Source: Callorhinchus milii (lineage: Eukaryota). Taken from it: a stretch of 64,000 bases of DNA. Every line of letters starts with the position of its first letter. The first letter of the stretch is position 1. Location of the stretch: positions 129,892,001 to 129,956,000 of the forward strand of contig NW_024704742.1 of NCBI RefSeq assembly GCF_018977255.1. The letters run 5' to 3'. A program made the position numbers and the translations under genes. This document shows positions 2,709-63,185 of the stretch, piece by piece. The notes beneath the pieces are model-generated. The model worked only from the letters and a program-made list of their open reading frames with translations. It was not told where the DNA came from and ran no database searches.

Positions 2709-3430
2709 AATAATAATAATTCTTACATTTGATAAAGCGCCTGACACAAAGTCTCAAAATGCTTCACAGGATACAGTGTAGCAGTGATTGTGTATTTTGT
2801 TCTGAACATAGCAACCCATTTTCACCCAGAAATGTCCCACAAAACAGCCATGACATGAATGACCAATTTTATCTGGAGGATTGTTGGCCAGGACACTGGA
2901 AGAAACTCCCTTCTCTTTTCAAATAGCGGTGTGGGATCTTAATCGTCCACCTGAACAGACAGATAATAATATTAATAATTTGATGTAGCGCTGTTCACGT
3001 TTTCTAGATGTCTCAAAGCGCTTCACAGAATATACTGTAAAGTGAATTGACTGTATATTTGTGGGCGAAGCGCGGCAGCCAATTGTGCACAACAGTGTCC
3101 CACAGACAGTCGTGGATTGAAATGACCAATTTATTATTGGTTTTTTTTTCTTGAGGGATTATTATCAGGTGTGTGGAGTAAAGAAACTTGCCCAAGGTTT
3201 CACCCTACCAGGAATCAAACCCAGGTCTCTTGTTTGTGAGTCGAGTGCTCTAACCACTGAGCTATGGGACTCCACTTGATTTAGGATGTCAACTCCCAAC
3301 AAACTATCACACCCCCAGCACTGCACTGCAATGTCAGCCTAGACTATGAGTTCCAAGTCCACAAGTGCGGCTTGAACCCATTACCTTCTGACTCAGAGGC
3401 GAAAGTGAGATCAACTGAACCAATTTGACA
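2709..3430 (-). mobile_element. DeuSINE-like SINE split by a younger tRNA-SINE (2964-3273)
   Basis: Host 3' part at 2709-2963 and 5' part at 3275-3430 flank a complete GGAGTCC..TAGCTCAGTGG-headed SINE. Confidence 0.75.
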
Positions 3431-17165: not shown

Positions 17166-17248
17166 TTATAAATTGTTCAGCTCCGCCAGAGTCTGGTTAA
17201 GCATGTCATGAATGTTCAAGTTTTCTTCTTTAGCTCGGGCCAGTTTCT
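17166..17248 (-). CDS. TPM2: Exon 9d (cytoskeletal/smooth C-terminus): EKLARAKEENLNIHDMLNQTLAELNNL*
   Basis: 83 nt including TAA; acceptor ttccttgaaacaatag; AKEEN...QTL.ELNNL signature. Confidence 0.95.
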
Positions 17249-21943: not shown

Positions 21944-22026
21944 TTACATTGATGTGATATCATTGAGGGCATTGTCTAGCTCTTCACAGATTCCCTTGCA
22001 CTTCATTTTCTGAGTGTACACTTCAT
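21944..22026 (-). CDS. TPM2: Exon 9a (striated C-terminus): [27 protein letters not shown]
   Basis: 83 nt including TAA; acceptor ctccgctag; in frame with exon 8; resembles TPM2 9a [27 protein letters not shown]. Confidence 0.94.
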
Positions 22027-22028
22027 CT

Positions 22029-25010: not shown

Positions 25011-25080
25011 CTTCCAAATCATCAATCGTCTTCTCCAGTTTCGCTACAGATCTTTCAGCAAACTCAGCTCTGGTTTCAGC
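25011..25080 (-). CDS. TPM2: Exon 8: [23 protein letters not shown]
   Basis: 70 nt (canonical); acceptor cgtttacag, donor AAG|gtaata, phase 1. Confidence 0.97.
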
Positions 25081-25536: not shown

Positions 25537-25599
25537 CTCTTTTAGTTTTTCTGCTAACAGCTTGATTTCTTCTTCATATTTGTCTTCTTTTACAGAGTA
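25537..25599 (-). CDS. TPM2: Exon 7: YSVKEDKYEEEIKLLAEKLKE
   Basis: 63 nt (canonical); acceptor ctcactggcag, donor GAG|gtgaga. Confidence 0.97.
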
Positions 25600-29942: not shown

Positions 29943-30018
29943 CTTTTCAGCCTGGGCTTCCAAAGACTTCAGGTTGTTGGTGACATTTTTCAATTCTTCC
30001 TCAAAGTCAGCGCACTTA
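29943..30018 (-). CDS. TPM2: Mutually exclusive exon 6b (striated type, contains Cys190): [25 protein letters not shown]
   Basis: 76 nt; acceptor cttctgtacag after a long pyrimidine tract, donor AAG|gtagga. Confidence 0.96.
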
Positions 30019-30595: not shown

Positions 30596-30671
30596 CTCTT
30601 CCTCTGAGGCCATTAGCGATTTCAAGGTCTGGTCCATTATTCTAAGCTCCTCTTCCAATTGTCGTGCCCGA
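30596..30671 (-). CDS. TPM2: Mutually exclusive exon 6a (non-muscle/smooth type): RARQLEEELRIMDQTLKSLMASEEE
   Basis: 76 nt; acceptor actaactcag, donor GAG|gtactg; closely matches recalled TPM2 6a (RARQLEEELRTMDQALKSLMASEEE). Confidence 0.95.
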
Positions 30672-33031: not shown

Positions 33032-33102
33032 ACTTCTGACACCTCTGCACGATCCTCAGCTCGCTCCAGATCAGCTTCCAGAATGACCAGCTTACGCGCT
33101 AC
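33032..33102 (-). CDS. TPM2: Exon 5: VARKLVILEADLERAEDRAEVSE(V)
   Basis: 71 nt (canonical); acceptor ctcttacag, donor GT|gtaagt. Confidence 0.97.
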
Positions 33103-33323: not shown

Positions 33324-33441
33324 CTCTTCATATTTGCGGTCTGCTTCCTCAGCGATGTGTTTGGCCTCCTTCAGTTGCAGCTCTTGTAATTCCATCTTCT
33401 CTTCATCGCTGCGGGATCGGCTTTCAATAACCTTTATTCCT
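33324..33441 (-). CDS. TPM2: Exon 4: (R)[39 protein letters not shown]
   Basis: 118 nt (canonical); acceptor ttccttctgcag, donor GAG|gtgacc. Confidence 0.97.
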
Positions 33442-34118: not shown

Positions 34119-34385
<267 letters not shown>

Positions 34386-60592: not shown

Positions 60593-62269
60593 AAGACTAC
60601 AGTAAAGCCCCGACAGATGTCTCCAACCAGTCTGTGTAGTTTCTCCTGCAGCACAAACCGGCCAAGGTAAGCTATGTATCCGTCAGTGACCCCTCCCAAT
60701 CAGTTCAGTGCAAGTGGGGGTAGACCTCAGGTGAGCAGGATGTGACGTTATTCGCAGGACGCCTCTGCATAAATGACTCGCATATGAAGGCAAGGCATTA
60801 GGGCGAGGTACTGGGAGTCTTGCCAAACCTGGGGAGCTGCACCCCTAACCAACAGCCACCAGATCTACAACTAAAACTTGGGATGGTGGTGGTGGGGCAG
60901 GTAGGAGGAAAGGAGATACAAAGAGGCGACAAACGCAGAACAGACTCAAAACATACAATTTTCTCCACAAGAATCAGGGACAAGCTCAATATTTCGTACA
61001 ATGGGGTGTTTCAATTGGAAAGTATTCCAGACAGGAATTAAGCTGAGTACAGACCGACAGATAGATAAGAGCGAAAAAGAAAGCTACCTTCCTAACAGAA
61101 AGTAGCACTGGATGAAAAAAAATTGAATTTTCTGGTAAGCAAAGCAGATTTCTCTAGACCAAGCCCAACCTTCAAAACAGTCTCTGGGTCACTGGCCACA
61201 CAAGGTAATCCTCATCAGCCATCTGTGAGCAGCCAAGGTGGGGGCTCAGGAAGAGATCAGACACCCCAGGACTATCAGGCAGGATTCTGCCTCCTGTGCA
61301 GCACAAAGCAAACCACTGAGAGAACCAAAATAATTCATAAGATCTCTAAACAAACTTTGTCCATTTTCTTTTTGTACAAAAAAGGAGAGGGGGAGGTGTG
61401 GAGGGGCAGCCTCAGGTCACTAATCTTTCAACAGTTCCCCTTTTAAGGGCCCCCAGAGTGGGATGTTTTTTTATATATGCATATATATATATAAAAAAAA
61501 CAAGTTAAGCCAAGAAGGTTTGGTTATTAATTACAAAAGAAAATTCCTTCTCAGCACAAAAAACCCAGTCACGTTCCAGATTGCTTCTCCTTCCAATCTT
61601 ATATTTTTTTGGTGGGGGGGGGGAAAAAAAAACACTAAATAATTTGGATTCCCCACCTATTCAAAAGGGACCCAAGAGAGAGAGAGAGAAGGGGGGAGGG
61701 TGAGAGAGATCATGTTAACTGTGGATGAAACTGACTGAGGTTTGGGAGGATTGGCATAGGAACTTCCATTCACTCAGCAAGAACCCTGGGCCAACACCCA
61801 TCCTCCACCATTTTGAATTGGAACAATAGTCCCCCCCCCAAAGAAACTCCATCAATCTCCTGTCCCCCCCCCCTCTCCCTCCCTCTCTCTCTCTCTCTCT
61901 CTTTTCTTCCTCTTGTGAAGGAAATGTGACAGAATTTTTCCTCTCTCTTTCTCTCTCAGGGAGAAGGAGAGGCGGATGTAACACAAGGAAGGCAGCTCGA
62001 CATGCAACTTCTCTCCCCCATCCACACCGTACCTGAGTCACAACCCAACAACACATGGGGAGGGAGGGGGGGGGAGAGGAAGAAATGGTCAAATTCAAAC
62101 TGACAACAGTTGTAAATTGCAAAAAAAGGGGTAAAATGCAATAAAAGGGGTAAAATGCAATAAAAGGGGGTAAAACGCCAAAATAAAAAGGTAAAACGCC
62201 CCCCACACCCCCCCCCCCAAAAAAACTTTTTTAAAATTAAAAAAAAATCGAGTTTTGAGAGAGAGAAAG

Positions 62270-62925
62270 GTGGGATGTGGGGGGTGGGGGGTAGGGGTGA
62301 GGGGCGTGAGGGGGTGGTGGGGGGTGAGGGGGTAGTAGTGGGGGTGAGGGGGGTAGTAGTGGGGGGTGAGGGGGTAGGAGTGGGGGTGAGGGGTAGGAGT
62401 GAGGGGGTAGGAGTGGGGGTGAGGGGGTAGGAGTGAGGGGGTAGGAGTGGGGGGTGAGGGGGTAGGAGTGAGGGGGGGTAGGGGTGGCGGGGTAGGACTG
62501 GGGGTGAGGGGGGTAGGGGGGTGAGAGGGGACTGGGGGTGAGGGGGTAGGACTGGGGTGAGGGGATGGGGTGAGGGGGGTGTACGGGTGGCGGGGTAGGA
62601 CTGGGGGTGAGGGGGGGGTGGTGGGGGGTGAGGGGGTAGGAGTGAGGGGGTGGGGGTGAGGGGGGTGTAGGGGTGGCGGGGTAGGACTGGGGGTGAGGGG
62701 GGGTGGTGGGGGTGAGGGGGTAGGAGTGAGGGGGTGTAGGGTGGCGGGGTAGGACTGGGGGTGAGGGGGGGGTGGGGGTGAGGGGGAGGTGGGGGTGGGG
62801 GGGGGGTGGGGGGGGTGTTGGTGAGAGGGGGTGGGGGTGAGGGGGTGGCGGGGTAGGACTGGGGTTGAGGGGGAGTAGGACTGGGGGTGAGGGGGGTGGG
62901 TGGGGGTGAGAGGGTGGGGGGGGGT
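62270..62925 (+). repeat. Very G-rich compound minisatellite (GGGGGTGAGGGGGTAGGA(G/C)T-type units)
   Basis: Dozens of runs of 4 or more G separated by TGA, TAGGAGT or TAGGACT spacers. Confidence 0.92.
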
Positions 62926-62966
62926 GTTGGTTGTTATATTAAATGCAGATAAAACATGTCCCTCAC

Positions 62967-63110
62967 TCTCTCTCTCGCCTGTCGCTCCTCATCCAACTCC
63001 CTCTGCAGATGCTCGGCTTTCTCCTCGGCATCGTCCGCCTGCTGCTGCAGAGCCTGGATCTTCCTCTTCACCCCCTCGATCGAGGAGCCCGACACGTTTC
63101 TTTGTTCCAT
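62967..63110 (-). CDS. TPM2: Exon 1b (short-isoform first exon): [48 protein letters not shown]
   Basis: 144 nt, 48 codons. ATG in gaaATGG context, in-frame upstream TAA at 63144-63146, phase-0 donor AGA|gtgagg. [13 protein letters not shown] is the 1b signature. Confidence 0.93.
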
Positions 63111-63185
63111 TTCTTTTGGAGGGGTTTTTTTTTTGGCGTATGTTTATATATAATTTATCTACAATATTTTTTTAAAAAAAAAACA

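What the first reader, a model, noticed from the sequence alone, without database searches (positions are those of the whole stretch)
62967..63146. Exon 1b with a non-canonical, 4-residue-longer N-terminus ([14 protein letters not shown]...)
Seen: 48 codons, and the only in-frame ATG after an upstream stop gives M-E-Q-R-N. Known: 1b exons are typically 44 codons starting MAG, giving 248-aa isoforms whose N-terminus forms the head-to-tail overlap. Met-Ala termini lose Met and are acetylated by NatA, whereas Met-Glu termini keep Met and use NatB. Inference: 252-aa isoforms with altered overlap geometry and acetylation route. GTG TCG GGC (VSG) may be the relic of an ancestral ATG GCN GGC start replaced by an upstream ATG.
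Basis: partly seen in the sequence, partly recalled or inferred. Interest (0 to 1): 0.7.

Follow-up and report, generated by a model that had tools for sequence, protein, structure and literature searches.

The report
Tropomyosin-2 short isoform, lengthened tip
A vertebrate tropomyosin gene starts its short, non-muscle form a few codons earlier than usual, adding a small floppy tail in front of an otherwise normal actin-binding rod; the tail is real but probably a tolerated quirk rather than a new mechanism.

Summary
Minus strand 63110-62967 is a 48-codon tropomyosin exon 1b with one in-frame ATG. RNA contigs from two studies match it with no other letter, GTG at codon 6 included, and splice it to exon 3. 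The exon model gives 252-aa isoforms. The gene is TPM2 by elimination: the other talin-linked copy carries the TPM1 exon 9a.

None of 105 distinct 1b tips examined has this start, but tip length already varies from -2 to +2. The added residues lie before the first heptad, in a tip that is disordered in a Tpm3.1 crystal (PMC6677793) and non-helical in a single-sequence model. Register and rod length are unchanged, so altered overlap geometry is unlikely. NatB acetylation follows from the Met-Glu rule and was not tested. Most likely an upstream ATG in the A-rich leader took over and the old ATG became GTG. No identified shark, ray or chimaera orthologue was found, so conservation is open. New variant of a known kind; low interest.

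The parts
62967..63110 (-). TPM2 exon 1b coding part, 48 codons
   Evidence: spliced RNA contigs; PDB matches to Tpm3.1 and Tpm1.9
63096..63110 (-). Codons 1-5 (MEQRN), A-rich like the leader; probably captured 5' UTR
   Evidence: composition; origin is inference
63093..63095 (-). GTG codon 6, candidate relic of the old start codon
   Evidence: no other letter in X1 or X3 contigs; relic reading is inference
62967..63080 (-). Coiled-coil part of 1b, Ile11 onward, 38 codons, in canonical register
63144..63146 (-). In-frame TAA that closes the frame upstream of the ATG
63111..63160 (-). 5' leader carried on the same contig as the 1b-3 splice; A-run with +1 and -1 length variants at 63124-63125 in X3
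   Evidence: tables 4, 8
62965..62966 (-). GT splice donor of exon 1b; intron of about 28.6 kb to exon 3
34219..34352 (-). exon 3
   Evidence: loose end
33324..33441 (-). exon 4
33032..33102 (-). exon 5
30596..30671 (-). exon 6a
29943..30018 (-). exon 6b
25537..25599 (-). exon 7
25011..25080 (-). exon 8
21944..22026 (-). exon 9a coding part with stop
17166..17248 (-). exon 9d coding part with stop

Best explanation
This is the internal first exon (1b) of TPM2, making short cytoskeletal isoforms of 252 aa. An in-frame ATG arose about five codons upstream in the A-rich leader. As the first AUG, in good context, it took over initiation, and the old start was then free to decay, most simply ATG to GTG at codon 6. 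The protein keeps Met1 and is acetylated by NatB instead of MetAP plus NatA. The coiled coil begins at Ile11 in the usual register, so rod length and overlap core are those of an ordinary 1b tropomyosin. Only the non-helical overhang in front of the overlap grows, from about 5 to 10 residues in the mature chain. The change is tolerated, with at most a modest shift in actin or tropomodulin affinity. Shown: sequence, splicing, length, register, first-AUG position. Inferred: use of this ATG, NatB route, order of events, near-neutrality.
For: Spliced contigs of two studies carry ATG and GTG unchanged. No other ATG between 63717 and 63110 or in frame within the exon. Length variants in the A-run just upstream of the ATG and none inside the frame fit a UTR/CDS border there (table 4; one contig each, could be slippage). 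Ile11 aligns with the Leu that opens the coiled coil in TM1bZip. PMC6677793 (passages) says the first six residues of its Tpm3.1 construct are not visible and may be disordered in all 1b tropomyosins, and that 1b residues 6-34 superpose on 1a residues 1-29. AlphaFold2 on the single sequence gives helix 10-47, with mean pLDDT 60 for residues 1-10. The residues just before the helix are kept: Ser/Thr at -1 in 97 of 102 and Glu/Asp at +1 in 104 of 105 distinct 1b sequences, as here. Tips vary naturally: spacing 4 (1), 5 (14), 6 (78), 7 (4), 8 (2), no such start (6) of 105. Five rows carry an extra in-frame Met upstream of an intact start, the expected intermediate, and P0046 has lost the canonical start independently. 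A Met-Ala-Ser extension left bacterial Tpm3.1 actin affinity nearly unchanged (PMC8463859, passages). The gene is somewhat more diverged than its paralogues (exon 4: 32-33 of 39 identical to four reference proteins against 35-39 of 39), and TPM2 1b is absent from human, mouse and rat (PMC4426136, passages).
Against: No identified chondrichthyan orthologue was obtained, so neither the age of the extension nor its neutrality was measured. This is the longest tip seen and the only long one with Met-Glu (0 of 105). Tip chemistry can matter for 1b isoforms: natively acetylated Tpm3.1 bound F-actin more tightly than bacterial protein with or without an extension (PMC8463859), and acetylation changed cofilament thermal stability more for short isoforms (PMC9204724, passages). 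The tropomodulin/leiomodin site lies in the first 19 residues of 1b (PMC4985258, passages). Gly13 replaces a near-invariant Ala in the first heptad (Gly in 1 of 105, Ala in 97). The model is a monomer without alignment, not an overlap complex. The NMR paper on the 1b overlap (PMC4410877) was not held.
Confidence: 0.7

Rival explanations
1. The extension is a selected, lineage-conserved feature: a 10-residue acetylated arm that retunes head-to-tail polymerisation or pointed-end capping of this short TPM2 isoform.
For: The nearest row in the tree, P0055 (support 85/84, not starred, 38 columns), also has a lengthened tip (+2), so lengthening may be a lineage trend. The termini set isoform behaviour (PMC9204724, PMC7109190, passages). 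Gly13 and other departures in this gene could be co-adapted. The exon is expressed and spliced in two studies.
Against: P0055's tip shares none of the five added residues, and its organism is not on record. The added codons look like leader sequence in composition. They lie outside the helix. No second sequence with this tip in 105 distinct tips.
Confidence: 0.13
2. Same outcome, different history: the old ATG was codon 5 (now AAC) in a canonical 44-codon exon, and four codons were added. Val-Ser-Gly is then not the relic start.
For: Ungapped alignment puts Asn5 on Met1 and Val6 on Ala2. Val from Ala is one transition. Met-Ala-Ser starts occur in 13 of 99, among them P0038, the most similar core (33 of 38), and P0066 reads Met-Ala-Ser-Gly. 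No indel is needed.
Against: Needs at least three substitutions (two in the start codon), against one substitution on a 43-codon background. The composition break falls after codon 5, not before it. P0055 begins Met-Ser-Gly-Ser.
Confidence: 0.3
3. The 252-aa form is minor or absent in vivo: most transcripts start close to or past the ATG (a TATA-like word lies at 63152-63143), and ribosomes start at the GTG or fail to make a short isoform.
For: TATA-like word about 40 nt upstream of the ATG. Contig depth is lower beyond the CA repeat than over the exon (the tool warns that contig depth cannot show starts or levels). The GTG has A at -3.
Against: The contig that carries the 1b-3 splice runs unbroken through the ATG to 63160, past the TATA-like word (table 8). 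TA-rich runs also precede both paralogous 1b starts. The ATG has purine at -3 and G at +4.
Confidence: 0.07
4. Assembly error or private allele at codon 6.
For: None found. Contigs drop rare variants, so polymorphism is not excluded.
Against: 0 other letters in contigs from two studies nine years apart.
Confidence: 0.01

Closest known systems
Low-molecular-weight (exon 1b) vertebrate tropomyosins Tpm3.1, Tpm1.8/1.9, Tpm4.2 (248 aa)
   Same: Internal first exon 1b spliced to exon 3; ungapped match from residue 8-9 onward to Tpm3.1 and Tpm1.9 chains; same 204 residues after 1b (252 minus 48).
   Different: 48 codons rather than 44; Met-Glu start predicted to keep Met and use NatB, where the human short isoforms lose Met and are acetylated on Ala2 (PMC8463859, passages); overhang about 10 rather than 5 residues.
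TPM2 exon 1b of non-mammalian vertebrates (noted for chicken and zebrafish in PMC4426136)
   Same: Paralogue by elimination. Twelve other held cores share the exon ending Arg-Glu-Arg, including a named Albula tropomyosin.
   Different: Ten of those twelve have a Met-Ala start at canonical spacing, P0055 has a +2 tip and P0046 has lost the start; none has the five added residues.
Long (exon 1a) tropomyosins, Met-Asp start
   Same: NatB route with Met retained (PMC8463859, passages).
   Different: In 1a the acetyl-Met is the first core position and acetylation is critical; here it would sit ten residues before the core.
Engineered N-terminal extensions (Ala-Ser, Met-Ala-Ser, Gly) on recombinant tropomyosin
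   Same: A few extra residues before the coiled coil; tolerated, and used as acetylation mimics (PMC9204724, PMC7109190, passages).
   Different: Natural, longer, charged, and on a 1b isoform.

Membership tests
Vertebrate tropomyosin exon 1b (short isoforms) | Lies between exon 2b and exon 3 of a tropomyosin gene | tested here: met
   exon 1a at G000:C1:129977053 and 2b about 1.8 kb below it (L006), 1b about 20 kb further, exon 3 at 34352
Vertebrate tropomyosin exon 1b (short isoforms) | Spliced directly to exon 3 in RNA | tested here: met
   loose ends at 62966 in X1 and X3 equal the start of exon 3
Vertebrate tropomyosin exon 1b (short isoforms) | Sequence and heptad register of the 1b coiled coil | tested here: met
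   E 6e-13 to Tpm3 chain 6otn_A, ungapped; 33 of 38 identical to P0038; helix 10-47
Vertebrate tropomyosin exon 1b (short isoforms) | Usual (not defining) 44 codons with Met-Ala/Ser/Thr start, Met removed, NatA | tested here: not met
   48 codons, Met-Glu; the usual form holds in 78 of 105 distinct tips, so it is a majority trait
Vertebrate tropomyosin exon 1b (short isoforms) | Own promoter and first-exon status (start site mapped) | tested here: inconclusive
   no upstream joint listed and no acceptor-like site printed; contigs cannot show starts
Vertebrate tropomyosin exon 1b (short isoforms) | Head-to-tail polymer on F-actin | not testable with these tools
   needs biochemistry
TPM2 (beta-tropomyosin) orthologue | Talin-linked, and not the TPM1 copy | tested here: met
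   talin exon about 13 kb upstream of exon 1a; the second talin-linked gene (C26) has a 9a identical over 26 residues to TPM1 chains; that TPM1 and TPM2 are the two talin-linked paralogues is recalled, not from a call
TPM2 (beta-tropomyosin) orthologue | Direct match to a named TPM2 sequence, or a supported tree | tested here: inconclusive
   no named TPM2 among held proteins or PDB hits; the 38-column tree has no starred clade holding the window row
NatB substrate | Met followed by Asp, Asn, Glu or Gln | tested here: met
   Met-Glu; rule from PMC11735805 passages
NatB substrate | Acetyl-Met1 observed and NAA20/25-dependent | not testable with these tools
   needs N-terminal proteomics

The most novel reading that the evidence does not exclude
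The tip is conserved across this fish lineage and is functional: a short tropomyosin that has moved from the MetAP/NatA route to NatB and doubled its N-terminal overhang, giving a cytoskeletal Tpm2 with different end-to-end strength or tropomodulin capping. It would be a natural test of what the 1b overhang and its acetylation route are for.
Probability: 0.13. Interest if true: 0.45.

Novelty: new variant of a known kind. Interest (0 to 1): 0.2.

Why it matters
Tropomyosin ends are usually treated as length-critical. A natural, expressed 1b isoform with five leader-derived residues and a different acetyltransferase class suggests that the overhang of short isoforms tolerates change, unlike the 1a start. 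It offers a ready construct pair (with and without residues 1-5) for asking whether that overhang matters for actin or tropomodulin binding. It does not point to a new mechanism unless conservation or a binding effect is shown.

Tried and rejected
Search for chondrichthyan orthologues: three protein searches gave 37, 8 and 1 hits, none named as a cartilaginous fish. The representative search listed the best 150 of 250 hits without names. Three cluster look-ups named only Albula, Hymenochirus, Oryzias and Sphaerodactylus. The window's own 48-aa and 58-aa frames are not in the collection. The metagenome scan gave one locus, TPM4-like with a canonical start. Runs of organisms B and C touched only a simple repeat. 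No holder was on record as RNA; the splice shows that X1 and X3 hold RNA. An alignment of separate exons on a scaffold misaligned and was not used. A tandem duplication of the start region as origin of the new ATG was rejected: the 7-nt repeat is matched by 178 of 1000 shuffles. The first exon 9a/9d borders were off by two bases and were corrected. The bacterial promoter scan does not apply to this genome. The Atlas search only confirmed tropomyosin-like features, with recognition below its threshold. Earlier findings: nothing returned. No complex prediction was sent, since a textbook overlap would pass by likeness. Three papers were not held: PMC4410877, PMC3169316, PMC1302047. Preprint 10.1101/2024.11.14.623419 (passages) was irrelevant. 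No supplements were opened; alignments in supplements or in subscription papers on tropomyosin evolution could already show this tip.

Full report
Observation. On the minus strand the frame reads stop (63146-63144), 11 leader codons, ATG at 63110, and 48 codons to a GT donor after 62967. The ATG is the only in-frame ATG of the exon, the 11 leader codons hold no CTG, GTG or ACG, and no ATG occurs in any frame between 63717 and 63110. Of four runs laid, X1 and X3 (organism A, two studies, 2013 and 2022) each gave a contig with 0 other letters over the whole coding part, reaching 63160 and 63133, with a loose end equal to the start of exon 3. X10 and X12 touched only a simple repeat. GTG at codon 6 is therefore real, and the ATG lies on spliced transcripts. 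Contigs cannot show start sites or rare alleles. X3 shows +1 and -1 variants in the A-run at 63124-63125, upstream of the ATG, and none in the frame (table 4; one contig each).

The gene. The window is G000:C1:129892001-129956000 of a 991.5 Mb genome. Exons 3, 4, 5, 6a, 6b, 7, 8, 9a and 9d lie in the window with AG/GT borders. Exons 1a and 2b lie about 20-22 kb upstream. All four 1b-to-9 paths give 759 nt, 252 residues and one stop. A talin exon lies upstream. A second talin-linked tropomyosin on C26 has an exon 9a identical over 26 residues to TPM1 chains in the PDB, and a third on C21 groups with TPM4-like rows (93/95, not starred). The window gene is thus TPM2 by elimination; the TPM1/TPM2-talin linkage is recalled, and no named TPM2 was available for a direct match. 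PMC4426136 (passages) notes that TPM2 1b is absent from human, mouse and rat and present in chicken and zebrafish. Both paralogous 1b exons in this genome have 44 codons and start Met-Ala-Gly, so the long tip is specific to this gene.

How unusual is the tip. I pooled the hits, the best 150 of 250, and cluster members: 190 proteins, 188 with a 1b core, 105 distinct tip-plus-core sequences. Spacing from a Met-Ala/Ser/Thr start to the first heptad residue was 4 in 1, 5 in 14, 6 in 78, 7 in 4, 8 in 2, and 6 had no such start; the window's spacing is 10. Of 99 with such a start, 57 begin Met-Ala-Gly, 13 Met-Ala-Ser, 5 Met-Ser-Gly. None of the 105 resembles the five added residues. Two rows have predicted Met-Asp or Met-Glu starts at the core itself (P0044, P0166), unverified. 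Five rows carry an extra in-frame Met above an intact start, and P0046 has lost the canonical start. Limits: these are machine-called frames, mostly unnamed genomic read-throughs, chosen for likeness to the query, and none is identified as a shark, ray or chimaera. The sister row in a 97-row, 38-column tree is P0055 (85/84, not starred, bootstrap unsettled), an unnamed sequence with a +2 tip starting Met-Ser-Gly-Ser.

Origin. Without gaps, Asn5 sits on canonical Met1 and Val6 on Ala2. In its favour: one transition turns ATG into GTG; P0055 has Met-Ser-Gly-Ser at the matching place; and codons 1-5 are 60% A and 33% GC like the 30 nt of leader (57% A, 37% GC), while codons 6-10 are 0% A and 73% GC (9 of 15 against 0 of 15, p 0.0007; 8 of 12 against 0 of 12 without the two start-like codons, p 0.0013; a post hoc test on few bases). 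The in-register history (old start at codon 5) needs no indel but at least three substitutions. I put the two histories at about 2 to 1. A local duplication is not supported (178 of 1000 shuffles).

Mechanism. Ile11 aligns with the Leu that opens the coiled coil in the TM1bZip peptide. PMC6677793 (passages) superposes 1b residues 6-34 on 1a residues 1-29, and reports the first six residues of its Tpm3.1 construct as invisible and probably disordered in 1b tropomyosins generally. So canonical 1b already has about five residues hanging in front of the overlap (my reading of that numbering), and this protein would have ten. A single-sequence AlphaFold2 model gives helix from residue 10 to 47, with pLDDT 60 for the first ten residues. 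The residues flanking the helix start are conserved (Ser/Thr at -1 in 97 of 102, Glu/Asp at +1 in 104 of 105). Rod length and heptad phase are unchanged, which argues against altered overlap geometry. Met-Glu is a NatB-type start (PMC11735805, passages), while human short isoforms lose Met and are acetylated on Ala2, probably by NatA (PMC8463859, passages). The switch is a sound prediction but was not tested, and long tropomyosins already use NatB. Published effects on short isoforms are mixed. A Met-Ala-Ser extension did not change bacterial Tpm3.1 affinity, but native acetylated protein bound more tightly (PMC8463859). Acetylation gave minor affinity changes but larger thermal-stability effects for short isoforms (PMC9204724, passages). 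A methods review states that acetylation affects actin and Tmod binding of long but not short isoforms (PMC12353072, passages). The Tmod/Lmod site is within the first 19 residues of 1b (PMC4985258, passages), so a modest effect on capping is the most likely functional consequence, if there is one. Against plain neutrality: Gly13 replaces an Ala found in 97 of 105. The gene is modestly more diverged than its paralogues (132 and 130 of 151 identical to them over exons 3, 4, 5, 7, 8, against 136 of 151 between them), which fits relaxed constraint or lineage tuning.

Novelty. Ten full-text searches listed no paper whose title or abstract start concerns a lengthened 1b tip in a cartilaginous fish. 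I saw only listings for most hits, subscription papers and supplements were not seen, and automatic annotation may well already hold the 252-aa form. For PMC7109190 I saw passages; for PMC4410877, PMC3169316 and PMC1302047 only reference-list entries. Earlier findings of this scan returned nothing.

Verdict. A real, expressed, gene-specific variant of a known exon: start-codon turnover that lengthens a flexible tip. New variant of a known kind; interest 0.2. The bolder reading, a conserved functional arm with a switched acetylation route, is not excluded (0.13).

Noticed in passing
window 21947-22027 (-), exon 9a: Two cysteines replace Tyr267 and Ser271 of TPM1 numbering. By heptad arithmetic from Met1 (recalled convention) 267 is a core 'a' position like Cys190, so the striated isoform could form an extra interchain disulfide near its C-terminal end.
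   Followed up: no
window 33324-33441 (-), exon 4; L006:1181-1306 and 2940-3053 (-), exons 2b and 1a: These exons look more diverged than in the paralogues; exon 4 is 32-33 of 39 identical to four reference proteins against 35-39 of 39.
   Followed up: partly
window 63072-63074 (-), codon 13 of exon 1b: Gly in the first heptad where 97 of 105 distinct 1b sequences have Ala and 1 has Gly.
   Followed up: partly
G000: Only three tropomyosin loci were found (C1, C21, C26); no TPM3-like locus turned up. The searches give lower bounds only.
   Followed up: no
L007:6288-6665 (-), L007-L009; L015: A talin gene ends just upstream of exon 1a on the same strand; the C26 tropomyosin has a talin exon about 28 kb upstream of its exon 1a.
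   Followed up: yes
window 34353-62966: The 1b-to-3 intron is about 28.6 kb, against about 4.5 kb (C26) and 13.5 kb (C21) in the paralogues. It opens with a G-rich simple repeat of about 670 nt at 62260-62930.
   Followed up: no
window 63143-63152 (-): TATA-like word about 40 nt upstream of the ATG; spliced contigs run through it, and TA-rich runs also precede both paralogous 1b starts.
   Followed up: partly
P0046, P0058, P0054: A 1b with the same core as P0054 but with the canonical start lost and an internal Met three residues before the core; a second, independent start turnover. Organism not on record.
   Followed up: no
P0055, P0180, P0181: Unnamed 1b with a +2 tip starting Met-Ser-Gly-Ser; sister row to the window in the tree.
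   Followed up: partly
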